DNA from: a virus
Lineage: Duplodnaviria > Caudoviricetes
Strand: one strand, 5' to 3'
DNA: 55,307 nucleotides
Virus record (IMG/VR): IMGVR_UViG_3300012940_000030
Span: 1-55,307 of that record
The notes under the pieces are model-generated. The model was given only the letters and a program-made list of their open reading frames with translations. It made no database searches and was not told the origin of the DNA. The position numbers and the translations under genes are program-made. The number at the start of each line of letters is the position of its first letter. Position 1 is the stretch's first letter. Shown one piece after another: positions 1,309 through 42,353 of this stretch.

Positions 1309-1516
1309 ACCCCTCAATAAAGGCCCAGTATCGTTTTTCACACGCTGGAACCATTTTTCACAGACACGGCACTCAAGGCACCAACAATCCACCTCCCGCC
1401 ACCTTGAGGCAGCATCCCGCAATTCTCCCGGCAACACCAGTTTATGCAAAGTGCCTTTTACGTAGTCTGGCTTAGTGGAAACGATACTTTCCAAACAGGA
1501 AAAGGTGGCGGCAACG

Positions 1517-1792
1517 ATGGAATGCAAAACCTGCCACGGAACCGGGATGACAGACGGAGCGCGGTGCTTGGCGTGCGACGGCTGGGGCCGTGTTCCTGAA
1601 GTCGATAGTCAGCCGCACACCACCTACCGCCACCCTGAGGCAGGGCCCGAGTTGCAACAGCACAAACAAAAACCGCCCCAGGATACTCCTAGAGCGGCTT
1701 TAATTGTTCCGGCTATATCGGTATCGCCCAGGCTTCAAATCGCCGCGAGCGGATACGCCAGGGTCACAGAGCCGCGATTACCCCGGCGGTGA
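1517..1792 (+). CDS. small DnaJ-type zinc-finger protein
   Basis: CKTCHGTG...CLACDGWG = two CxxCxGxG motifs; the 3' part overlaps the terminator and is doubtful. Confidence 0.5.
   Translation: MECKTCHGTGMTDGARCLACDGWGRVPEVDSQPHTTYRHPEAGPELQQHKQKPPQDTPRAALIVPAISVSPRLQIAASGYARVTEPRLPRR
1667..1702 (-). terminator. rho-independent terminator ending the late/lysis operon
   Basis: Minus strand AAAGCCGCTCTAGGAGTATCCTGGGGCGGTTTTTGTTTG: hairpin plus U-tract. Confidence 0.7.
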
Positions 1793-26221: not shown

Positions 26222-26590
26222 TCGCCAACCAGTCGCCCGCTGTTTGCATTCAATGCGGTTTGATCGGGGCTGTTGAAGCGAGGGAGGCGAATTGGGTCAG
26301 ATCGAAGGCTCGGGAAGCTCCCTGCGAAAGTTGCTTTCCCGAGTCCTTCGCCACACGATCTGTGTCAAATTGACTCAGATACGAAAAATGCCCGTTATAA
26401 TGCTTTGGGCGCATTACGGGCGTCTGCCATCTCGGCTTTTTTTCGCGGGGCGCGGCAAAATCTGGACGCTAAACCCACCCAGAAACGCCCGTCTCTCCAC
26501 CGCTTTATTCTCGGCTATGTGCCTGAGAATGCGCGATATTCGCGCTAATTCACGACGCAGACAAATGAACGCTGGCGCCTGATTTGATCT

Positions 26591-26618
26591 ACAATAGTGA
26601 TTTGTTGCTGCTTGTCAA
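26591..26618 (-). promoter_or_regulatory. putative late-operon promoter
   Basis: Minus strand TTGACA-N16-TATTGT with CAAATCAC in the spacer. Confidence 0.5.
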
Positions 26619-28266: not shown

Positions 28267-28807
28267 CTCTAGCTCCCATTCTACTCGAACGCTCCTGGGG
28301 CGTTTCCACATCCTCAATCCCAATCGTAATCGGAGTGGCCCGCCCGAATATCATCACCTCGACTTTGACCAGCCCGTCCTTGGCCCAATCGACAATTCCT
28401 GAATGGGCCGCAAACACACCGGCTTTGACGATGATTTCCGTTCCCTTCTCATACGTCTTTGACGGGGCTTTCTCTGGCTCTCTGCTGAGTTGCACAGACC
28501 ATTGGCGCATTTCATGGTTCTTGATCTGGACCGGGATGCCGTCGAACGTAACGGGGGCTTTGATCGCCCGGCAGAATGCCAGCTCGTGAAGGTCTGGCTT
28601 CTCTTGGTTGCGGGCGACGAACACGTAGCCGTTGGCTGCGATGACCTTGTGCCTAACGGTTGCCCCTATTCGACCACCCTTGCCTGAGCGCGTCTTGACG
28701 ATCTGGCGAGGTACGCAGGCATAAATCCCTCGCCGTAGGAGCTGGCGGGCTGATGATAGCTCGCGCTGTGGTTCGGTGCGGCACATGAACCATACGTGAC
28801 CCGCCAT
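28193..28807 (-). CDS. NusG-family antitermination factor (NGN + KOW)
   Basis: WFMCRTEPQRE, GYVFV, GVFAAHSGIV, VEVMIFGRATPI. Confidence 0.9.
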   Translation of the reverse strand: MAGHVWFMCRTEPQRELSSARQLLRRGIYACVPRQIVKTRSGKGGRIGATVRHKVIAANGYVFVARNQEKPDLHELAFCRAIKAPVTFDGIPVQIKNHEMRQWSVQLSREPEKAPSKTYEKGTEIIVKAGVFAAHSGIVDWAKDGLVKVEVMIFGRATPITIGIEDVETPQERSSRMGARARLKANPSDDIPRNRPQRAVAVRA

Positions 28808-28820
28808 GCACTTCCCTTCT

Positions 28821-29213: not shown

Positions 29214-29549
29214 GATGCCCTCCCGGTTGAGACATTAGATGAACTTTCGGGGGCTAACTCACTGATCGTGTTGCATGCAAAATTATGGGTTTGCGCGGGG
29301 CGCGCGAATAGGCTCTTGTGTTCCACGAAGCCGCTCCTGCTTGCATCAGGGGTTGGACTCAATAGAGGCCCGTTGCTCTGCCAGGAGCGCGGGCCTCATT
29401 CGTTTTGGAACGCTGTACGGGGATGGCCGGGGTTTTTACTGGCGCCAATAAAAACTAGCGCTTGACAATCCGACCGACGCAAATATTGCCATACCAGTCA
29501 GTGATTTGCAAGAGCAACTTCAGATTCTACTTGACTTTGGTGCAGCGCG

Positions 29550-35469: not shown

Positions 35470-36399
35470 TCAACGCAGGTCCGCCATGACAACATCGTTC
35501 CAATCGGAACCGACATCAGGCGGCAACCGAACATCCACCTGGAGCCCTTTCCCGGCGAGCTTGTGCGCGAGCGTGTAGGCGGCGGCTTGACCGGCGTACC
35601 CCGCGTCTGCGTCGCCAAATATGAGGATGTTCTTAGCCGTCACGGGCGGCTCCCACTTCACCATCGCGCCCGCACTTAGCGCCGCCCAAACCGGAACATC
35701 AAACAACTGCGCTGCGCTCAACGCAGTCTCGATGCCCTCGGCAATCCCCATCGTTTCCGCTGATCTTGACAGCCTCACCGCGCCACCGATTGGTATGGCT
35801 ACAGGAGCGAGCTTTCTAGGCTTCGGCACATTGGCCTTGTTGCCATGCTCATCCAGGAACGTGTGGTGCAGCGTCCAGGACTTCGTGTCGGGGCTGACCA
35901 TCTTCGCCACCAATGCGGGGTGGTGCGTAATGCGCCCGTCGTCGTGCCGGTACGCCGCACGATGGTTGAACCTGAGCTGCGTTGGGTAGTCCTCGATTTG
36001 CAGGCCACGGGAGCGAAGGTATTGCGATGCCACGTCGTCACCACTGAGCCGCCGCGACGCGCTCCAGAGCGACTGTATCCGCTCCATCCCGCGTTCGTTG
36101 TTCCGGGGCGCGCGCGGGGCCTCGACTGGGGACGTTCCAATCTGCTGGAGAATCCACGTGCGCGCCTCTCGGAACGATACACCTTTGACTTTCATCACGA
36201 GATCAACGCCAGTGCCTGGGCCGCACGTGTTGCAGAAGTAGGAACCGGAGCCGGTTCGGTTCGTCCACCTGTAGCGATCTTTCCCTCCACACATTGGGCA
36301 TGGCCCGTGTTTTCCATTTAGGGCTGTCGCTGGAACTCCAGCCTCAAGCAAAATGTTGCGCCAACGCCCCCGCGCAGCATCATGGATATCGTCCCGCAT
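35470..36399 (-). CDS. DNA primase (zinc-binding + Toprim)
   Basis: HGPCPMCGGKDR, CNTC, IAEGIETALS, FGDAD, DWND. Confidence 0.92.
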   Translation of the reverse strand: MRDDIHDAARGRWRNILLEAGVPATALNGKHGPCPMCGGKDRYRWTNRTGSGSYFCNTCGPGTGVDLVMKVKGVSFREARTWILQQIGTSPVEAPRAPRNNERGMERIQSLWSASRRLSGDDVASQYLRSRGLQIEDYPTQLRFNHRAAYRHDDGRITHHPALVAKMVSPDTKSWTLHHTFLDEHGNKANVPKPRKLAPVAIPIGGAVRLSRSAETMGIAEGIETALSAAQLFDVPVWAALSAGAMVKWEPPVTAKNILIFGDADAGYAGQAAAYTLAHKLAGKGLQVDVRLPPDVGSDWNDVVMADLR

Positions 36400-36929
36400 T
36401 AGAGCCGCACTCCCCCGCCGCGAATAGACGGATTAAACGCATGAAGGCGTTTCTTTGCTTGAACATATGCAGCATGCGCAGATTCAGGATCGTCAAAATA
36501 CCCAAGATGGTACGCACGATTGTTTGCGCGTATCTCCGCCCGCCACCTCTGTTTTGGCTTAAACCACACAACACCCACAAAGCCGGACTTATTGCTCTTT
36601 TTGATCGCGACGTTTTGCTGGTTTTCTCCATTCGTTGCTAAGCGCAGATTACAAATCCTGTTGTTGAGTCTATCCCCGTCCCTGTGGTCAACTTGCTGTT
36701 CTGGCCACTTCCCATGAGTCATCGCCCATGCAATCCTGTGGGCATAGTAGCGCCTGTAGGCCACCGTTACACGCCAATGACCTGTGCTATGCAAAGACCC
36801 AGCAATACGCCCCGCCCACTTCGCGTCCCACTTAGGAATGCCGCGCTTTCTCCACGTGAGAATTCCGCTTGTTGGATCATAAATTAGCCATTCATGTAGA
36901 GCGCTTATTTCAATGTTACGCTGCGCCAT
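36399..36929 (-). CDS. HNH-AP2 homing endonuclease
   Basis: YAHRIAW, VDHRDGDRLNNRICNLR, NKSGFVGV, HLGYF. Confidence 0.93.
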   Translation of the reverse strand: MAQRNIEISALHEWLIYDPTSGILTWRKRGIPKWDAKWAGRIAGSLHSTGHWRVTVAYRRYYAHRIAWAMTHGKWPEQQVDHRDGDRLNNRICNLRLATNGENQQNVAIKKSNKSGFVGVVWFKPKQRWRAEIRANNRAYHLGYFDDPESAHAAYVQAKKRLHAFNPSIRGGGVRL

Positions 36930-38595
36930 GTGCAGCCTCCGTATGCTTGCGAGCTTTAGCGAATGCGATGTTGCGATGCTTGACGAATTGGCGAACGGCA
37001 AACGAGGGCTCTATTGGCCCAACGTTGCTCACCCCTCGTGGCCAGACGCCAGTGGCATCTCGATAGAGATTTGCGGCATGTCCAGTTGACTTCGCGACAC
37101 TGAGAATTTGCGCGTACAAATCCGCCTTCGGAATCTGCGCCAGCGCCTCGTGCTTCGGTCGCTTTCCTTTGCGTCTCTTGCCTCCAAATTCCGTTAGCTC
37201 GCCCTCGATGGTGTGCACGTCGATGCGCTTAGGCAGTGGCGTTCCGCACTCAAGGCACGCGCGCTCACCAACAGGCATCAGCGCAGAACACGTGCCGCAA
37301 CACTTTGGCATCGGAGCAGACTTGTCGCGCTTCTGCGTCTTCGCTTGCTTCTTGGTGCCATCGTCTAGCTCATCGAAGTCAATGTCAGTCACGAACCCAA
37401 GACGGTCGTGGGTGTCTGAGTGGTCCAGAATCAGCGCATCCGACTTGCCTGGTGCGGTACGCAGTGCGCGCCCGACGATCTGAACGAATAAGCTTGGCGA
37501 CTTCGTTGGGCGCGCGAGGATCAAGCATCGCACATCCCAATCAATTCCAGTCGTGAGACACCCGATGTTGCACACGACCTTGATTTCACCGGAGTTGAGT
37601 TTGCGTCCGATCTCTTCACGTTCCTCGCGTGGGGTGTTTGCATCAACGTAGGCGACAGGAACTCCGAACTCTGCGAAGCGGTCGTGCAATGCCCGCGCAT
37701 GATCGCGGCCTGTTGCGAAACAAAGCGTCGGGCGATCCTCTCCGCGCTCAAGCCACGTGCTCACGATGTCAGCAACCAGCTTCGGCTTGTTCATCCGCTC
37801 TGCAAGCTGGCCCTCGTGGAAATCACCCGCCACCGTGGCCACCCCGTCCAGGTCGGGGTGAGATGGCGCGAACACACGAAACGGCGACAGGAACCCCATG
37901 TCGATCAGCTTCGCCATTGACGTGGTTTTGATCAGAGCATCCCAGCGCTTGCCCATGCCCTTAGCCCACGGGGTTGCACTGAGGCCTATGAACAGCGCTG
38001 ACGATTGCTGCATCCAACGGTCATAGACCGCGTGCTGAACGTGACACTCATCGACTACAACCACATCACAGACCGGGAACTTGCGCCGTGCGAGCGTCTG
38101 CGCCGTTGCGATCTGGACGGGCGCGTGTGGACGGCGCCAAGCATGGTCTGCCTGGATAACGCCCATGTCTGAGGCGTCTATGCCGTTTTCGAGAAAGCGT
38201 GCGAACGTCTGGTCAACGAGGCCAATCGTCGGCACGCAGAACACCACCCGGTTTCCCTTGGCGCGAGCACCAGCAACGATGTGCGCTGAGAGTACCGTTT
38301 TTCCGAACCCGCACACGGCTTGCAAAACCGGCCGACGTGCTCCCGAGCGGAGAGCGCTGCGTAAGGCATCCATGGCAGTGAGTTGGTGTGGGCGCAGCGG
38401 CCTCAAGCCGACGATGGCTGGCTGGATAGGCGATTGCCGCCCCAAATTTGGCGTTTGGCGGCTTTTTGACGGCAAGCCGCTACCCATGTAGCCGAAATCT
38501 TCGCGAGCGGCCTCAGCGTGTTCCCTAGCGGCGTTCTCACAAAACGTGAGCAGCGACTCGCAAGCGTCTGAGTTGGATGGGGTTTGCGAGGTCAT
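36916..38595 (-). CDS. superfamily 2 (DExH) helicase with C-terminal zinc finger
   Basis: GFGKT, DECH, SATP, QIVGRALR, CxxC..CxxC. Confidence 0.93.
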   Translation of the reverse strand: MTSQTPSNSDACESLLTFCENAAREHAEAAREDFGYMGSGLPSKSRQTPNLGRQSPIQPAIVGLRPLRPHQLTAMDALRSALRSGARRPVLQAVCGFGKTVLSAHIVAGARAKGNRVVFCVPTIGLVDQTFARFLENGIDASDMGVIQADHAWRRPHAPVQIATAQTLARRKFPVCDVVVVDECHVQHAVYDRWMQQSSALFIGLSATPWAKGMGKRWDALIKTTSMAKLIDMGFLSPFRVFAPSHPDLDGVATVAGDFHEGQLAERMNKPKLVADIVSTWLERGEDRPTLCFATGRDHARALHDRFAEFGVPVAYVDANTPREEREEIGRKLNSGEIKVVCNIGCLTTGIDWDVRCLILARPTKSPSLFVQIVGRALRTAPGKSDALILDHSDTHDRLGFVTDIDFDELDDGTKKQAKTQKRDKSAPMPKCCGTCSALMPVGERACLECGTPLPKRIDVHTIEGELTEFGGKRRKGKRPKHEALAQIPKADLYAQILSVAKSTGHAANLYRDATGVWPRGVSNVGPIEPSFAVRQFVKHRNIAFAKARKHTEAAHGAA

Positions 38596-39071
38596 TGCGG
38601 GCGACCTCCGGGCGTGCAGTGCCCAACTGAAGCCGACCCCCCGCCCCCTACTACCTTTGACGTATCACCTAGAGGATAGGTCTCAATAAAGGTGTCTAAC
38701 TCCCTGGTAGAATAAACCTTAGAAGTAAGTGGAGGGGCCACATTGGCCTCTAGGCCTAGACATACGTTTTGGCCCCTAGGCTTTCTGCGCCTACAGGCCA
38801 CATTGGCCCATAGGAGAACGTATTTTGTCGTCACCCGATGCCCCCTTGAATTGACCTTCCGTTCACGCTCTATGAGCTTGTCTTTCGCCAGCTTGGCGGT
38901 GGCCCGCTTCAACGTTCGTTCCGGCATGTCGAGCATGTGGGACAGATCAGAAATTGAGACCACGACGGCCCCATTACGGTTGGCCATGTACGCCAATCTG
39001 ATCAGCACATGATTGGCGCGGTCGCATCCCGTCCGCTGCTTTAATGCCCACTGAAAGTGCTTCCAACTCAC
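38592..39071 (-). CDS. winged-HTH replication initiator-like protein
   Basis: WA....VLIRLA..AN..G...S...L...ERTLKRA...L. Confidence 0.75.
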   Translation of the reverse strand: MSWKHFQWALKQRTGCDRANHVLIRLAYMANRNGAVVVSISDLSHMLDMPERTLKRATAKLAKDKLIERERKVNSRGHRVTTKYVLLWANVACRRRKPRGQNVCLGLEANVAPPLTSKVYSTRELDTFIETYPLGDTSKVVGGGGSASVGHCTPGGRPQ

Positions 39072-39406
39072 GCGGCATTCCTCCGAAACCCACCGCGAAA
39101 AGCCCGCGTCAATTCCTTCGCCCTCATGTCGATTGTTTCGAGGTCCGCAATGATTGCCCTGTCACCGGATGCAATCACGGCATCTATGCGCCCAATGCCG
39201 TACAGGACCGGGGTGTAGTGCTGGCCAAGCTTGTTTGCGATTTGCAGGATGCTGTAGCCGTGCAACTTGCTGACCCAGGCGGCACACCAACGGGCCTCTG
39301 TCTCAGCCCGCGGCCCGTAACGTCCGCAGAACTTTTCCAGCGGAATGCCGCTGCATTCGCTCGTGGCCTTGATGATGTCGGCTAGGCGGGGGCGTGTAGG
39401 ATTCAT
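39068..39406 (-). CDS. DnaA C-terminal (domain IV)-like HTH protein
   Basis: II...G...AR..A.W...GYS..QIA..LG.HYT.VLYG. Confidence 0.7.
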   Translation of the reverse strand: MNPTRPRLADIIKATSECSGIPLEKFCGRYGPRAETEARWCAAWVSKLHGYSILQIANKLGQHYTPVLYGIGRIDAVIASGDRAIIADLETIDMRAKELTRAFRGGFRRNAA

Positions 39407-39630
39407 GCGGCCCTCCGTTGGTCCAGGAGCGCCGCAAGCATTGCTTGCTTGAGTGAGCGGTAGACGATCTGCCCAACGCGATCACCGCGCTTGGCGCGCC
39501 ATTGCAAGCCATCTTGGACGGTGGCGTATCGCCCGCATGTGGAACGCCATTCGTAGTCACCGGAGCCGACTGCCCAGCATTGCCATGTGATGCCGTTGAT
39601 GGTGAAATCTGGAGCGGAGGAACGCTTCAA
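39403..39630 (-). CDS. hypothetical protein
   Basis: Coupled in operon. Confidence 0.55.
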   Translation of the reverse strand: MKRSSAPDFTINGITWQCWAVGSGDYEWRSTCGRYATVQDGLQWRAKRGDRVGQIVYRSLKQAMLAALLDQRRAA

Positions 39631-39989
39631 GCCCGCGCCCTCCCCATCCCAATAGACGGCGCAATGGAGCGCATCTCACCGAAGAACTTATCGGTGAGAC
39701 GTCCCGCTCTGCGCTCGATGTAGTTGATGCTGTCGATGGTCTGCTGATTGCCGTCTGCGATCTCGGCTGTGATGCGCTCTATGGAGCAGCGGACGCAGGA
39801 ATGATCCCTACCTAGCGTGTTAGCGACCGTGAGGACCGCGTAACCGTTCTTGACGGCAACGTAGGAAATCAGGTGCCGGGCGCGCATGTAGCGGCCCTGA
39901 CGTATGGGCGCGAGAATGTATTTCTCTTCGACGCCGACGACAATGCACGCTGCGCTGATGATGTCGCGCAATCGAGGTCGATTAGACAT
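39627..39989 (-). CDS. DnaA C-terminal (domain IV)-like HTH protein, paralog
   Basis: ARHLISYVA...GY....VA..LGRDHSCV. Confidence 0.75.
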   Translation of the reverse strand: MSNRPRLRDIISAACIVVGVEEKYILAPIRQGRYMRARHLISYVAVKNGYAVLTVANTLGRDHSCVRCSIERITAEIADGNQQTIDSINYIERRAGRLTDKFFGEMRSIAPSIGMGRARA

Positions 39990-40066
39990 GCAAACCCCTA
40001 TCTATTCGGGGCGTGCGTCTTGACCTTCGCAGCAAATCGGCGCATACAATTCGCATGTGCTGCGTA

Positions 40067-40190
40067 GGGCAAAACTCAAGCCCACAAGCGACCCGCCAAG
40101 GTCGCCATTTCCTGAAGTTGATCCGCCAAGATCATAGAAACAGTCGAACCCTGATCGAGCCCGCCAGCTCCTTCGGGGTTCCTCGTTTTT
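40067..40190. ncRNA. structured element with three CCGCCA-loop hairpins (sRNA or leader element)
   Basis: Three different stems with the same loop; promoter-like TTGACC...TACAAT upstream on +, T-run downstream. Confidence 0.6.
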
Positions 40191-40398
40191 AGTCGTCGTG
40201 TTCGTCCATAAACTTCAGCGTCGGCAACGTGATCGGCTTGTCCCGCCTAGCAAGGCTCGCTGTCTGCGCATCACGAACCGTTTTCTCTGTCTTGGTTGGT
40301 CGGCGCTTGAACACGAATGCTGATCGCAAGCCGTTCGGCCTGCACTGCTCAGACCCGCCGTATTTGCGAGCCGACGACCAGTTCATTCGGTTGGACAT
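40189..40398 (-). CDS. small basic protein
   Basis: TGATG coupling; ends KPITLPTLKFMD. Confidence 0.6.
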   Translation of the reverse strand: MSNRMNWSSARKYGGSEQCRPNGLRSAFVFKRRPTKTEKTVRDAQTASLARRDKPITLPTLKFMDEHDD

Positions 40399-40496
40399 CA
40401 GGCCCGCAGCACAATGACGGTTGCGATCACGAGGCAACAGGCAGCTCCGAGGACAAGCCCTGAAAGGACGGCTGCAAACGCAGGGTTTCTATCCAT
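40398..40496 (-). CDS. 32-aa single-pass membrane peptide
   Basis: MDRNPAFAAVLSGLVLGAACCLVIATVIVLRA; coupled. Confidence 0.5.
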   Translation of the reverse strand: MDRNPAFAAVLSGLVLGAACCLVIATVIVLRA

Positions 40497-40641
40497 GCTG
40501 CTCTGCTCCCGCATTCATGATGGTTTCAATCTCGACGCCTTCGCCCCACCAGAAGAGAACCGTGCTCTGGTGCCACCCCTGCATTTCATATCTGCGGAGC
40601 TTGGTGATTGCGTCGTCGATGGCTTGCGCGAGTTGGCTCAT
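40489..40641 (-). CDS. 50-aa hypothetical protein, first gene of the leftward early operon
   Basis: GAGGA RBS; MSQLAQAIDDAITKLRRYE. Confidence 0.6.
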   Translation of the reverse strand: MSQLAQAIDDAITKLRRYEMQGWHQSTVLFWWGEGVEIETIMNAGAEQHG

Positions 40642-40889
40642 TTGATCCTCTGAATTAGTACGGGCGATGCGCGGATTTCACGGCATGCAAAAATCCCCTC
40701 AGGGCCACCATCGCCAACCGCATCTGCGCTTTCGTCAGTTCGATCCGCCCGCTGACCGATGGACCTTCCGACGATGGTGGGAACAGTCACTTTGCGAGAT
40801 GCAGGATGGGGACGGCTCATCACCGTGCCGATGCCTCGCGGCAAGGGCTTCCTGCACCCGGCAAAATGACCGGCACTCAAACGCTACGG

Positions 40890-40954
40890 AGAAAAGCGGC
40901 CGGTGATCAGAACGAGACCCGGCCTAAGTCTAGGGAGGAACGCCCAAGGTGGGC
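40890..40954 (-). ncRNA. MmgR/suhB (alpha-r8)-like small RNA
   Basis: Hairpin, GUUCCUCCCUAGACUU, GGCCGG..CCGGCC hairpin, U-rich tail. Confidence 0.65.
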
Positions 40955-41368
40955 TGGTACTGCTCTAGGGAACAGCACCGCGAAGCCGATCAGAGTGGCC
41001 TGGCCAGACCTTGCTGCCTGCTCCGGTGCCTATCTGGCTAACCGGCTCCGTCCCAACCCTGCCAGCTTTCAGGACGATGGTTTGGAGTGCAGGTATCCAA
41101 TCGACTTCGCGCTACTGTCCTCAACGCCACAGCAGGCCCCTGGGTCCTCAACCTCGCGCATCATGGGTGAGACCACCGTGCGCACGCGGTTCGTGGCCGC
41201 TGTCTCGCCAGGGGCCAGCTCTAGCGCTGGCTACTCGGAACTAACGACCGGGGAGTGGCTGCCCTCACAAACCACCCCCCGGTCTCGGCTACCCCCGCCG
41301 ATGCCCTTACGGGCCGTTCCATCGGCAATGGGAAAGTGTACGTCGCACTCGCGCCACGGTGGCGTGCT

Positions 41369-41438
41369 ACGTAAATTGACTTTACGTGATAGGAGGCGTA
41401 TATGTCAACAGGTGTAATCTGGAAAAATCGTTTTACGT
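41369..41438 (-). promoter_or_regulatory. leftward early promoter with repressor operators (OR-like)
   Basis: Perfect palindrome ACGTAAA-N5-TTTACGT at 41369-41387 over the -10; minus strand TTGACA-N18-TAAAGT; second half-site at 41432-41438. Confidence 0.75.
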
Positions 41439-41473
41439 GCGCGGCATGGCGAGTTGTGTGAAGACTCGCCCTC

Positions 41474-41749
41474 ATGGAAAGGTTTGAGACCAAGGTGAAA
41501 AAGGCTTTTGCGGAGCGGCTACGCAGCGCTCGCGAAGCGGCTGGCTATAAGACGATGGCCGACTTTGCCGATGCCATGGGCGTCGAACCACCCACATATC
41601 GCTATTGGGAGCGCGGGCAATCTCTTCCCGACCTGCCCCAGCTCACGCGGATATGCCAGCTTTTGGATATTGAGCCGAATGACCTTCTGCCATTGGGTAA
41701 GCGGCGCCGCCCTACCCATATGGACACAGATGGAAAATCCGCAGCATGA
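41474..41749 (+). CDS. CI-like XRE repressor (no peptidase domain)
   Basis: FAERLRSARE..G...DFA..MGV...TY.YWERGQS.PDL; flanked by operators. Confidence 0.88.
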   Translation: MERFETKVKKAFAERLRSAREAAGYKTMADFADAMGVEPPTYRYWERGQSLPDLPQLTRICQLLDIEPNDLLPLGKRRRPTHMDTDGKSAA

Positions 41750-42241: not shown

Positions 42242-42353
42242 ACATAAACGAGCGCCGAGCGGGTCGCCACTAGCCAAACCTGATGGCCCGCTCGGCAGAG
42301 AAACGAACAACAGGGCACGGCGTCTTTCTTCGCAACCATTCAGCGCACGGAGA

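What the first reader, a model, noticed from the sequence alone, without database searches (positions are those of the whole stretch)
40020..40190. Three hairpins with identical CCGCCA loops upstream of the replication genes: antisense sRNA, protein sponge or antitermination site
Seen: GCGAC-CCGCCAAG-GTCGC (40088-40105), TGAT-CCGCCAAG-ATCA (40119-40134) and GAGC-CCGCCA-GCTC (40157-40170). The last is nested in a GAACCC...GGGTTC stem followed by a T-run. A plus-strand TTGACC...TACAAT (19-nt spacing, imperfect) lies upstream, antisense to the operon. Inference: either a ~130-nt counter-transcribed RNA with repeated loops (CsrB-like or ctRNA-like architecture), or UGGCGG-loop sites on the early mRNA gating read-through into replication genes. 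GCCA-containing loops also occur near 29375 and 42270.
Basis: partly seen in the sequence, partly recalled or inferred. Interest (0 to 1): 0.72.

Follow-up and report, generated by a model that had tools for sequence, protein, structure and literature searches.

The report
Three-hairpin RNA element before phage replication genes
A 170-base spacer in an uncultured temperate phage most likely encodes a small antisense RNA with three matching hairpin loops, and those loops match the start region of the phage's own late-gene antiterminator, but no expression data or usable relatives could be obtained.

Summary
Three hairpins at 40088-40170 expose the same CCGCCA hexamer. It is the only such triple in the window, and 0 of 60 shuffles gave any triple. 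No Rfam family matches, and no related sequence could be fetched.

Best reading, confidence 0.4: a ~135-nt plus-strand counter-transcribed sRNA. It has one of only 5 strong sigma-70-like sites in the window. Its T5 run has the most stable upstream fold of the 24 plus-strand T5 runs. Position and orientation resemble lambda OOP and repABC ctRNAs: antisense to the leader of five replication genes that each overlap the next by 4 nt.

New here: hairpin 3 is an 18-of-19 copy (0 of 300 shuffles) of a segment inside the phage's NusG-like antiterminator gene. That segment is predicted to pair with the gene's own start region (pair probability 0.86-1.00). Hairpin 1 carries a 9-mer complementary to that start codon region. 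The element therefore probably also controls the late regulator.

The acting strand is unresolved. The CsrB-like and N/nut-like readings failed their tests. Everything is in silico. One related contig replaces exactly the hairpin block. Interest is moderate.

The parts
40020..40050 (+). Promoter-like site TTGACC-19 nt-TACAAT (10 of 12 to the sigma-70 consensus), pointing at the hairpins.
   Evidence: It is one of only 5 sites with at least 10 of 12 matches (spacer 16-19) on both strands of the window. The other four sit at positions where promoters are expected. Shuffles give a mean of 2.33 such sites, and 9 of 100 shuffles reach 5.
40055..40190 (+). Predicted ~135-nt counter-transcribed small RNA (start inferred from the -10 box, end at the T-run).
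   Evidence: dG -46 kcal/mol, z -3.68; loop bases are unpaired with probability 0.83-1.00. Transcription is inferred, not shown.
40068..40084 (+). Weak 5' hairpin GGGC-9 nt-GCCC of the predicted RNA. It is also the right arm of the long inverted repeat.
40088..40105 (+). Hairpin 1: GCGACC[CGCCAA]GGTCGC. GACCCGCCA (40090-40098) is a perfect complement of UGGCGGGUC at the NusG-like start codon.
   Evidence: This 9-mer occurs only twice on the + strand, at 28798 and 40090.
40119..40134 (+). Hairpin 2: TGATC[CGCCAA]GATCA. Its 14-nt core is a 12-of-14 repeat of the hairpin 1 core, and both differences compensate each other.
   Evidence: (family D6).
40146..40181 (+). Hairpin 3: a 9-bp outer stem (one U-G pair on the + strand), a 2x2 internal loop, then the inner GAGC[CCGCCA]GCTC. 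40158-40176 matches the minus strand of 28733-28751 at 18 of 19 bases.
40135..40190 (.). Terminator-like structure readable in both directions: an A-rich tract, hairpin 3, then T5 on the + strand. On the - strand hairpin 3 is followed by GACTGTTTCTAT.
   Evidence: flags a site on each strand; of 24 T5 runs on the + strand, this one has the most stable upstream 50-nt fold (-21.9 kcal/mol).
40009..40083 (-). Long imperfect inverted repeat (29-nt arms, 79% complementary) in the leader of ORF120. It encloses the plus-strand promoter.
   Evidence: (pair I1).
39995..40011 (-). Shine-Dalgarno GGGG (39998-39995) of ORF120 and the CCCC (mRNA sense, 40011-40008) that can sequester it.
   Evidence: The SD bases are unpaired with probability 0.30-0.85 in the free leader and 0.00 when 40190-40057 is blocked. 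This is a thermodynamic prediction only.
36916..39989 (-). Replication operon: ORF120 (DnaA domain IV-like HTH), ORF75, ORF112 (a second DnaA domain IV-like HTH), an O-like initiator with iterons, and a helicase. Each gene overlaps the next by 4 nt.
40189..40398 (-). ORF69, a small basic orphan protein. It is the last of three tightly packed small early genes, and its stop codon lies in the T-run/A-tract of the terminator.
28733..28816 (-). Start region of the NusG-like antiterminator gene (SD GGGA 28816-28813, ATG 28807, UGGCGGGUC 28806-28798) and the in-gene segment AGCCCGCCAGCUCCU (28751-28737) predicted to pair with it.
   Evidence: pair probability 0.86-1.00 in three context sizes; for the protein.

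Best explanation
The spacer encodes a ~135-nt counter-transcribed small RNA on the + strand. It starts about 7 nt after TACAAT (near 40055-40057) and ends at the T5 run, at a terminator that also serves the convergent small early genes. The RNA presents three exposed CCGCCA loops.

Because it is the exact antisense of the leader of the replication operon, its loops can 'kiss' the UGGCGG loops of that leader. This resembles lambda OOP and plasmid ctRNAs. Full pairing is predicted to free a CCCC tract that locks the Shine-Dalgarno sequence of ORF120. The five replication genes each overlap the next by 4 nt, so this would damp the whole module.

The loop motif is not arbitrary. It is the complement of AUGGCGGGUC, the start of the phage's NusG-like late antiterminator gene. 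Hairpin 3 is a near-exact copy of the segment that masks that start site in cis. So the same RNA pair (sRNA and early leader) probably also sets translation of the late regulator. The sRNA would act as a trans copy of the mask. The early leader would act as a mimic of the start site that could pull the mask away.

Shown: the sequence features and their statistics. Inferred: transcription of the + strand, every pairing in vivo, and every regulatory effect.
For: Structure and non-randomness: 0 of 60 shuffles; loops unpaired with probability 0.83-1.00.

Promoter: one of 5 sites in 110.6 kb of both strands. At the shuffle rate of 2.33 sites per window, a chance site in the right 50 nt and orientation is expected about once in 1000 (my arithmetic).

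Terminator: the most stable upstream fold among the 24 plus-strand T5 runs, also flagged. Two G-U pairs in its stem would be A-C mismatches on the minus strand.

Not coding: the three repeats fall in two different frames of the only open frame. That frame has no protein match.

Not the origin: TTGGCC[CT][CA]TAGG iterons lie inside the O-like gene.

No promoter-like site on the minus strand lies between the hairpins and ORF120, so the leader carrying the antisense target is part of the early transcript.

Leader refolding.

Precedents: OOP is made from pO next to gene O, runs opposite to the early operon and ends at tO (PMC5869508, passages; PMC12197685, section 2). repABC ctRNAs lie between repB and repC and are highly variable incompatibility factors (PMC7610768, passage).

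Related phages: in run X3 a 42,996-letter contig follows the window on both sides (65 differences in 1007 letters and 24 in 275), but replaces 40090-40178, exactly the hairpin block, with 84 other letters (table 5). This fits a fast-changing specificity module.

Link to the NusG-like gene: an 18-of-19 match (15 exact) with 0 of 300 shuffles. The copied segment pairs with the gene's own start region at probability 0.86-1.00. GACCCGCCA occurs only at hairpin 1 and at that start codon. Predicted duplexes: sRNA hairpin 3 with the start region -25.6 kcal/mol; the cis mask -27.8; early-leader hairpin 3 with the mask -41.4. Summed over the three units, the NusG-like start region ranks 2nd of 100 crude start regions.
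Against: There is no expression evidence of any kind.

The spacer between the promoter hexamers is 19 nt, which is poor, and about half of such 10-of-12 sites could be chance.

The minus strand folds almost as well (z -3.31). There each loop can close to a tetraloop by a U-G pair, so strand choice rests on the promoter and terminator alone. Every hairpin also exists in the early mRNA, which is certainly made.

No related sequence could be fetched, so there is no cross-phage covariation. Internal covariation is one pair only (81 of 500 shuffles as high).

A plain cis-antisense RNA does not need identical loops.

The NusG link is post hoc. In a window-wide duplex ranking the NusG-like start region is not among the 10 best partners of any unit, and it ranks only 10th of 100 by best single unit. 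UGGCGG/CCGCCA is a common hexamer here, with 79 copies.

The NusG-like start site is already masked in cis, so a trans repressor may be redundant.
Confidence: 0.4

Rival explanations
1. Only the minus-sense RNA (or the non-template DNA strand) matters and no plus-strand RNA is made. The hairpins are cis elements of the early operon. Hairpin 3 would be a leaky terminator after ORF69. The three UGGCGG hairpins would then be one of two things. (a) Mimics of the NusG-like start region, which capture the in-gene mask and switch on the late antiterminator once early transcripts accumulate; this is anti-antisense activation, as I recall for DsrA and rpoS. (b) Loading sites for the NusG paralog itself, as ops is for RfaH and a leader RNA hairpin is for LoaP.
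For: The early mRNA certainly contains these hairpins and folds well.

Hairpin 3 starts right after the ORF69 stop codon and is followed by a U-rich stretch. No minus-strand promoter lies between it and ORF120, so the replication genes need read-through.

The strongest predicted trans pairing of the element anywhere in the window is minus-sense hairpin 3 with the NusG-like mask: -41.4 kcal/mol, with the next-best partner of that unit at -33.2. This is stronger than the cis mask with its own start region (-27.8).

The phage encodes a NusG paralog: PHROG 6386 'transcription antiterminator' E 3e-16, NusG chains in the PDB at E 1.5e-5, Pfam NusG 22.1 bits.

Such paralogs are recruited by a hairpin in the non-template DNA (PMC5995543, passages) or by a small leader RNA hairpin placed before a terminator (PMC12691694, passages).
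Against: This reading leaves the plus-strand promoter-like site and the T5 run unexplained.

In this sense the terminator-like hairpin comes first and the other two come after it, which is the wrong order for a loading site that must act at that terminator.

Pairing from inside a stable 13-bp hairpin is unfavourable.

Resemblance to ops is only GGCGG (6-7 of 12), and ops-like matches with up to 3 mismatches are at chance level (95 found, 77.6 expected).

No UGGCGG lies in the late-operon leader (26580-26390), where the NusG paralog would be expected to load.
Confidence: 0.28
2. The repeats are double-stranded DNA sites GANCCGCCA(A)GNTC for a DNA-binding protein. Candidates are the two DnaA domain IV-like HTH proteins encoded just downstream (ORF120, ORF112). 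Binding would act as a roadblock or operator controlling entry into the replication operon.
For: Twelve of 14 positions are shared by units 1 and 2, and most by unit 3. The three units are direct repeats with start-to-start spacings of 30 and 38 bp (CCGCCA at 40093, 40123, 40161).

Two stand-alone DnaA domain IV-like proteins follow: Pfam Bac_DnaA_C E 2e-5 and 1e-4; atlas feature score 0.95 and TM 0.75 to DnaA.
Against: The variable stem position is complementary in 3 of 3 units. Each unit also carries extra, different, complementary flanks: 2 more pairs in hairpin 1, 1 more in hairpin 2, and a 9-bp outer stem in hairpin 3. A duplex-DNA site does not need these.

The motif is asymmetric and always in one orientation. 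The 14-mer has no further good copies (10 matches at up to 2 mismatches, 7.9 expected).

Any similarity to a DnaA box rests on my recall only. The paper I opened gives no box sequence.
Confidence: 0.1
3. This is an ordinary bidirectional terminator plus two small duplicated hairpins with no specific function. The match to the NusG-like gene is coincidence.
For: Terminator-like sites in this 4-kb region are no more frequent than chance (4 found, 3.2 expected). The element is a singleton with no retrievable relatives. In X3 the block is replaced, so it is not strictly conserved. The motif is a common hexamer.
Against: 0 of 60 shuffles give a triple and 0 of 300 give the 18-of-19 match. The promoter-like site, the exposed loops and the terminator coincide within 170 nt.
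Confidence: 0.12
4. The hairpins form in single-stranded DNA and serve replication, for example as a primase or helicase loading signal next to the replication genes.
For: Neighbouring genes encode a Toprim/zinc-ribbon primase and a helicase. The hairpins are strand-symmetric.
Against: Iterons that mark a lambda-type origin lie 1.3 kb away inside the O-like gene. Nothing here is AT-rich. The promoter and terminator signals and the NusG link are left unexplained.
Confidence: 0.04

Closest known systems
Lambda OOP antisense RNA (pO-oop-tO)
   Same: It is a short RNA made from a promoter beside the replication-initiation genes, transcribed away from them and against the early operon, ending at its own terminator. 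It sits between a small early regulator gene and the O-type gene that carries the iteron origin (PMC5869508 passages; PMC12197685 section 2).
   Different: OOP overlaps 52 bases of the cII coding end (PMC5869508). Here the overlap with ORF69 is 2 nt, and the RNA covers the untranslated leader of the next gene instead. This RNA is about 135 nt, against about 77 nt for OOP (my recall). It has three repeated loops. No sequence relation was tested, and the host is probably an alphaproteobacterium (the mmgR-like hit is the only clue).
Counter-transcribed RNAs of plasmids (repABC ctRNA; ColE1 RNA I, recalled)
   Same: It is antisense RNA in the spacer just upstream of the replication initiator genes, ending in an intrinsic terminator. 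It lies in a variable region, as expected of a specificity determinant (PMC7610768 passage). The three stem-loops that could kiss complementary target loops resemble RNA I and RNA II (recalled).
   Different: No Rfam ctRNA model matches. The replicon is a phage, not repABC. The loops are identical to one another, which ctRNAs do not need. No attenuator terminator was seen downstream in the target leader.
Multi-seed sRNAs with repeated C-rich loops (Xanthomonas sX13, S. aureus RNAIII and RsaE, alphaproteobacterial CCUCCUCCC RNAs; all recalled, none checked in a paper here)
   Same: Several hairpins each expose the same C-rich motif, which can pair with G-rich translation start regions.
   Different: The motif CCGCCA is not an anti-Shine-Dalgarno sequence. 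It complements a start codon plus the next codons (AUGGCGG). It is phage-borne and is also a cis-antisense RNA.
Anti-antisense activation (DsrA/RprA with the rpoS leader; recalled)
   Same: A start region is masked by a cis segment, and a second RNA is more complementary to that mask than the start region is (-41.4 versus -27.8 kcal/mol).
   Different: Here the mask lies inside the coding region (codons 19-24), and the candidate activator is the leader of another operon, folded as hairpins. Nothing has been shown experimentally.
Recruitment sites of specialised NusG paralogs (RfaH ops; LoaP leader hairpin)
   Same: The phage encodes a NusG paralog. The known paralogs read a small hairpin loop in the non-template DNA or in leader RNA, near a terminator (PMC5995543, PMC12691694, passages).
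   Different: Only GGCGG is shared with ops, and that is at chance level. The loop is not of the UNCG type. There are three copies. The order relative to the terminator is wrong in the minus sense.
CsrB/RsmZ protein sponges
   Same: Repeated hairpins with one loop motif on a short RNA that ends in a terminator.
   Different: No GGA in any loop on either strand and no Rfam match. This is not a member.

Membership tests
Lambda OOP-type antisense RNA | Short transcription unit (promoter plus intrinsic terminator) opposite to the early operon, beside the replication initiator genes. | tested here: met
   Sequence signals only. Transcription is not shown.
Lambda OOP-type antisense RNA | Overlaps the 3' coding end of the upstream regulator gene (52 bases of cII, PMC5869508). 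| tested here: not met
   The T-run at 40186-40190 overlaps only the stop codon of ORF69 at 40189-40191.
Lambda OOP-type antisense RNA | Sequence or structure homology to OOP. | not tested
   No OOP sequence was on hand. The Rfam scan gave nothing, but I do not know whether Rfam holds an OOP model.
Lambda OOP-type antisense RNA | RNase III-dependent cleavage of the target duplex. | not testable with these tools
   Needs experiment.
Plasmid ctRNA (repABC and others) | Antisense RNA in the spacer upstream of the initiator gene, ending at a terminator. | tested here: met
   (sequence signals only).
Plasmid ctRNA (repABC and others) | Match to a curated ctRNA covariance model. | tested here: not met
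   of 4227 Rfam families at E up to 10, only two microRNA noise hits (16.0 and 15.6 bits, against cut-offs of 81 and 90).
Plasmid ctRNA (repABC and others) | repABC-type replicon. | tested here: not met
   The neighbours are an O-like initiator, a helicase and a primase.
CsrB/RsmZ sponge | Multiple GGA motifs in hairpin loops. | tested here: not met
   The loops are CGCCAA, CGCCAA and CCGCCA on the + strand, and UUGGCG/UGGCGG (or UGGC/GGCG) on the - strand.
CsrB/RsmZ sponge | Match to Rfam Csr/Rsm models. | tested here: not met
Lambdoid N/nut site | boxA-like sequence next to the hairpin on the early transcript. | tested here: not met
   14 matches at up to 3 mismatches in the window (25.5 expected), none on the minus strand between 41400 and 39990.
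Lambdoid N/nut site | Hairpin placed upstream of the terminator it overrides, and an arginine-rich N-like protein. | tested here: inconclusive
   In the minus sense the terminator-like hairpin comes first. ORF69 is basic but an orphan.
NusG-paralog recruitment element (ops / LoaP hairpin) | A specialised NusG paralog is encoded by the same genome. | tested here: met
   22.1 bits, cut-off 22.2; PHROG 6386, E 3e-16; NusG chains, E 1.5e-5.
NusG-paralog recruitment element (ops / LoaP hairpin) | Match to the ops consensus or to a UNCG hairpin. | tested here: not met
   6-7 of 12 positions match ops by eye. Such matches are at chance level (95 found, 77.6 expected). The loops are not UNCG.
NusG-paralog recruitment element (ops / LoaP hairpin) | Binding of the paralog and antitermination. 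| not testable with these tools
   Needs purified protein and in vitro transcription.
Intrinsic (bidirectional) terminator | GC-rich hairpin followed directly by a U-run, on each strand. | tested here: met
   + strand: the extended stem ends at G40185, followed by U5. - strand: followed by UGUUUCU, which is weaker.

The most novel reading that the evidence does not exclude
The element is the hub of an RNA-only timing switch. The early-operon leader carries three hairpin mimics of the start site of the phage's NusG-like late antiterminator (UGGCGG(G)UC). The convergent sRNA carries three copies of the motif that masks that start site (CCGCCA), including a 15-nt exact copy of the in-gene mask.

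Early transcripts would unmask the late regulator. The sRNA would neutralise them, re-mask the start site, and throttle the replication operon at the same time.

A multivalent start-site mimic and mask-mimic pair encoded on opposite strands of one spacer has, to my knowledge, not been described. My literature searches and the phage-sRNA review section I read show nothing like it.
Probability: 0.25. Interest if true: 0.8.

Novelty: new variant of a known kind. Interest (0 to 1): 0.5.

Why it matters
Antisense RNAs at the junction between the early genes and the replication genes are classic in lambda and in plasmids. They are barely known outside enterobacterial phages. None of those I could find uses three identical loops, or copies a piece of another regulator's mRNA.

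If the link to the NusG-like gene is real, one 170-bp spacer would couple three decisions through RNA pairing alone: early transcription, replication, and the switch to late genes. It would also give a compact, portable example of a start-site mimic and a mask mimic on opposite strands.

The hairpin block is swapped in a related phage while its flanks are kept. That makes it a candidate specificity (immunity-like) module, and the idea can be tested as soon as that relative's sequence is read.

If only the plain reading holds, this is one more phage cis-antisense sRNA, in an uncultured phage with an unknown host. That is of modest interest.

Tried and rejected
Relatives. None could be fetched.
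- DNA searches: phages and plasmids, no match.
- Protein-anchored scans of viral contigs with ORF120, ORF82, an ORF120 alignment, ORF112 and ORF50: none.
- Scans of genome contigs: none.
- Scan of metagenome contigs: none.
Of the stretches held as loci, 16 showed two or more CCGCCA-loop hairpins within 80 nt, and none resembles the element; several are tandem repeats of one unit. Strict patterns gave 0 matches in metagenome contigs and 0 in viral contigs.
- The tools state that records very near the window may be left out.
- Helicase relatives (8 loci, 45-62% identity) have no such hairpins and no NusG-like gene (0 of 5 records).
- ORF120, ORF69 and the plus-strand frame are orphans in the word-indexed protein search. 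The full HMMER search gave 36 hits, the best at 39% identity.
- NusG-like protein against phages: no match.
- Earlier findings of this scan by sequence and by relatives: nothing.

Expression. No RNA holder was listed among 7 runs.

Laid contigs, weak points. X4 (406 letters, depth 5.98) covers 39775-40179 with 7 differences. X5 (151 letters, depth 2.6) covers 40066-40216 with 1 difference. Neighbouring pieces of the same runs differ by 6-9%. These are short, low-depth contigs, perhaps of other strains, and the positions of the differences were not listed, so I draw nothing from them. Parts without cover are not interpreted.

Targets in trans.
- The UGGCGG-near-starts list is noisy.
- The window-wide duplex ranking does not single out any start region.
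- Only the antisense of 28721-28760 stands out.

Other ideas dropped.
- tRNA 3'-end (GCCA) mimicry or T-box-like pairing: no tRNA genes, no test possible.
- LexA-type box: not followed; it rested on recall only.
- DnaA-box likeness of TGATCCGCC: recall only, and the paper read gave no sequences.
- The GCGAYA hairpin array at 20.9 kb as a sister element: its fold is no better than shuffles (z -0.22).
- ops-likeness of the late leader: at chance level.
- Structure prediction of the NusG-like protein from a single sequence: unusable (mean pLDDT 31.4), and no fold search was run.
- Supplementary files of papers were closed and not consulted. They might hold OOP or ctRNA sequences that would allow a direct comparison.
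Full report
SETTING. The window is a 55,307-base IMG/VR virus record with 59% G+C. It looks like a temperate phage. An HTH gene lies at 41474-41749 (+). A leftward promoter-like site TTGACA-18-TAAAGT lies at 41408-41379. Nearly all genes from 41.4 kb leftward are on the minus strand.

After that promoter comes about 400 nt without a convincing gene. Then comes a match to Rfam suhB/mmgR (RF00519, 44.2 bits, cut-off 41, at 40961-40883 on the minus strand). Then come three small packed genes: ORF50, a 38-residue membrane-like ORF, and ORF69.

The finding lies in the 199-bp spacer between the ORF69 stop codon (40189-40191) and the ATG of ORF120 (39989). ORF120 heads five genes that each overlap the next by 4 nt:
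- ORF120 and ORF112 are stand-alone DnaA domain IV-like HTH proteins.
- ORF75 is unknown.
- 38592-39071 is an O-like initiator holding three TTGGCC[CT][CA]TAGG iterons.
- 36916-38595 is a helicase.

The plus-strand RNA 40055-40190 folds at -46 kcal/mol (z = -3.68, 0 of 200 shuffles as good). It forms a weak 5' hairpin, two hairpins with CGCCAA hexaloops, and a composite third hairpin (9 bp, a 2x2 internal loop, 4 bp, hexaloop CCGCCA). The base of the third hairpin extends to G40185, directly before U5.

A scan for any three hairpins sharing any loop hexamer within 100 nt finds only this cluster in the window, and none in 60 dinucleotide shuffles.

Two corrections apply. First, the shared hexamer includes the closing C of hairpins 1 and 2. 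Second, the stems share a GANC/GN'TC core in which only one pair varies (CG, UA, GC). The units are therefore 14-nt repeats with one compensated position and different, complementary outer extensions. That pattern argues for hairpins in RNA or single-stranded DNA rather than duplex sites, but the internal covariation alone is weak (81 of 500 shuffles as high).

WHICH STRAND. The minus sense folds nearly as well (z = -3.31), and there each loop can shrink to a tetraloop through a U-G pair. The plus sense has two G-U pairs in the terminator stem that would be A-C mismatches on the other strand. Base-pair arguments therefore do not decide.

What favours the plus strand is a complete transcription unit.
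- TTGACC-19-TACAAT is one of only five sites in both strands of the window with at least 10 of 12 consensus matches. The other four sit where promoters are expected: 41408(-), 26618(-), 26673(+) and 27250(+).
- Shuffles give 2.33 such sites on average. A chance site in the right 50 nt and orientation is therefore expected about once in a thousand (my arithmetic).
- Of the 24 T5 runs on the plus strand, the one at 40186 has the most stable upstream fold (-21.9 kcal/mol).
- The loops are unpaired with probability 0.83-1.00.

The region is not coding. The only open frame reads the repeats in two different frames and has no protein match.

The hairpin plus A-tract/T-tract also reads as a weaker terminator in the minus sense. 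It probably ends both convergent units. No minus-strand promoter-like site lies between it and ORF120, so the replication genes depend on read-through.

HOW IT MAY ACT ON THE REPLICATION OPERON. The predicted sRNA is the exact antisense of the ORF120 leader from 40190 to about 40057. That stretch includes one arm of a long inverted repeat (40009-40037 / 40055-40083). In a simple thermodynamic test, the Shine-Dalgarno GGGG of ORF120 is unpaired with probability 0.30-0.85 in the free leader, and 0.00 when the sRNA-complementary stretch is blocked. Given the 4-nt overlaps, this would damp all five genes.

This is inference. It mirrors plasmid ctRNAs, which lie between repB and repC and are variable incompatibility factors (PMC7610768, passage). 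Its position mirrors lambda OOP, which is made from pO beside gene O, runs leftward, ends at tO and acts with RNase III (PMC5869508, passages; PMC12197685, section 2). OOP overlaps 52 bases of cII, whereas this RNA overlaps ORF69 by 2 nt.

RELATIVES. No related sequence could be fetched (see Tried and rejected). Contigs of four runs from four other studies were laid on 38600-41500. In X3 one 42,996-letter contig follows the window at about 93% identity on the left (65 differences in 1007) and 91% on the right (24 in 275). It replaces 40090-40178 with 84 other letters. The replaced block begins at hairpin 1 and ends inside the 3' arm of hairpin 3. The promoter-like site, the 5' hairpin and the T-run lie in the conserved flanks. 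A swap of almost equal length, confined to the hairpins, is what a specificity module would show. I could not read the 84 letters, so I cannot say whether hairpins or loops persist.

THE NEW LINK. A self-search showed that 40158-40176 (+) matches the minus strand of 28733-28751 at 18 of 19 bases, 15 of them contiguous. No such match arose in 300 shuffles.

That site lies in codons 19-25 of a gene starting at ATG 28807. The gene encodes a NusG paralog: PHROG 6386 'transcription antiterminator' at E 3e-16 over residues 4-168, NusG chains of the PDB at E 1.5e-5, and Pfam NusG at 22.1 bits.

In folds of 121, 251 and 361 nt, the copied segment GCCCGCCAGCUCCU pairs with the gene's own Shine-Dalgarno and start codon. 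The helix UGGCGGGU:GCCCGCCA has probability 0.86-1.00.

Separately, GACCCGCCA of hairpin 1 is the perfect complement of UGGCGGGUC at that start codon. This 9-mer occurs nowhere else on the plus strand. Hairpin 2 gives 9 pairs with one G-U.

The three CCGCCA loops are therefore copies of the mask of the late regulator's start site, and the three UGGCGG loops of the early leader are copies of the start site itself. Predicted duplex energies are -25.6 kcal/mol (sRNA hairpin 3 with the start region), -27.8 (the cis mask) and -41.4 (early-leader hairpin 3 with the mask).

CAVEATS ON THE LINK.
- It is post hoc.
- In a window-wide ranking of 40-nt targets, the NusG-like start region is not among the ten best for any unit.
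- Among 100 crudely called start regions it ranks 10th by best unit and 2nd by the sum of the three.
- The hexamer is common.
- Pairing from inside stable hairpins is costly.
- Which strand acts, or whether both do, cannot be told.

OTHER READINGS TESTED.
- CsrB-like: no GGA loops and no Rfam match.
- N/nut-like: no boxA-like sequence in the early leader, and the hairpin order is wrong.
- NusG-paralog loading site: attractive, because RfaH reads a hairpin loop of the non-template strand (PMC5995543, passages) and LoaP reads a leader RNA hairpin ahead of a terminator (PMC12691694, passages). But only GGCGG is shared with ops, and such matches are at chance level (95 found, 77.6 expected). The late-operon leader holds no UGGCGG.
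- Duplex-DNA sites for the DnaA domain IV-like proteins: possible, but these do not need the complementary flanks.
- Origin function: unlikely, given the iterons in the O-like gene.

VERDICT. This is a real, non-random, structured element. It is most likely a new phage counter-transcribed sRNA with an unusual triple-loop design. It shows a statistically notable but unproven tie to the NusG-like late regulator. All function is inferred from one sequence.

Noticed in passing
window 40883-40961 (-): Match to Rfam suhB/mmgR (RF00519, 44.2 bits, cut-off 41), with its own terminator, inside the early leftward transcript. The control search matched this family in Caulobacter only. Contigs of runs X2-X5 also cover this stretch.
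   Followed up: partly
window 40962-41370 (-): About 400 nt after the leftward early promoter has no convincing gene. In related contigs, blocks of it are replaced (joints at 40962/41087, 40995/41085 and 41136/241). Together with two internal terminators downstream, this suggests some processive antitermination signal.
   Followed up: no
window 28733-28816 (-): The start site of the NusG-like antiterminator gene is predicted to be masked by codons 19-24 of the same gene (pair probability 0.86-1.00). The upstream HTH gene stops 14 nt before the ATG, so translational coupling could open the helix.
   Followed up: yes
window 26388-26618 (-): Late-type unit: TTGACA-16-TATTGT, then about 190 nt, then a strong hairpin with T5 readable on both strands (26388 on the - strand, 26437 on the +). 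This layout resembles lambda pR'-tR'. GGCGCCAGCGTT near the predicted start matches the RfaH ops sequence at 9 of 12 positions, but such matches are at chance level in this window.
   Followed up: partly
window 38736-38814: Three iteron-like repeats TTGGCC[CT][CA]TAGG (two of them within 19-nt repeats) inside the O-like initiator gene. This is the probable replication origin.
   Followed up: partly
window 36916-39989 (-): Five replication genes each overlap the next by 4 nt. Two of them (ORF120, ORF112) are stand-alone DnaA domain IV-like HTH proteins, a type the atlas finds mostly in viruses.
   Followed up: partly
window 36399-37001 (-): An HNH endonuclease with an AP2 domain sits between the primase and helicase genes and overlaps the helicase end. 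It looks like a homing endonuclease insertion.
   Followed up: no
window 29365-29405 (+): A nested hairpin (8-9 bp outer stem, inner GCUC/GAGC stem, GCCA in the loop) followed by TTCGTTTT, on the strand opposite to the local genes (z -3.39). Its architecture is like hairpin 3 of the finding. It may be the end of a second antisense RNA, but I saw no strong promoter upstream.
   Followed up: partly
window 42254-42296 (+): A 13-bp hairpin at the head of the rightward operon (ERF recombinase side). Its large loop holds CGCCA and GCCAA. The overall fold is not better than shuffles (z -1.17).
   Followed up: partly
   Followed up: partly
window 39394-39626: In run X5 a contig replaces this stretch (ORF75) with 589 other letters, while ORF112 and ORF120 on either side stay about 94% identical. 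The replication module is a mosaic.
   Followed up: no
window 1502-1519 (+): UGGCGG also lies in the ribosome-binding region (AAGGUGGCGG, 5 nt before the ATG at 1517) of a counter-oriented small gene. This could be a second start region of the same kind.
   Followed up: partly
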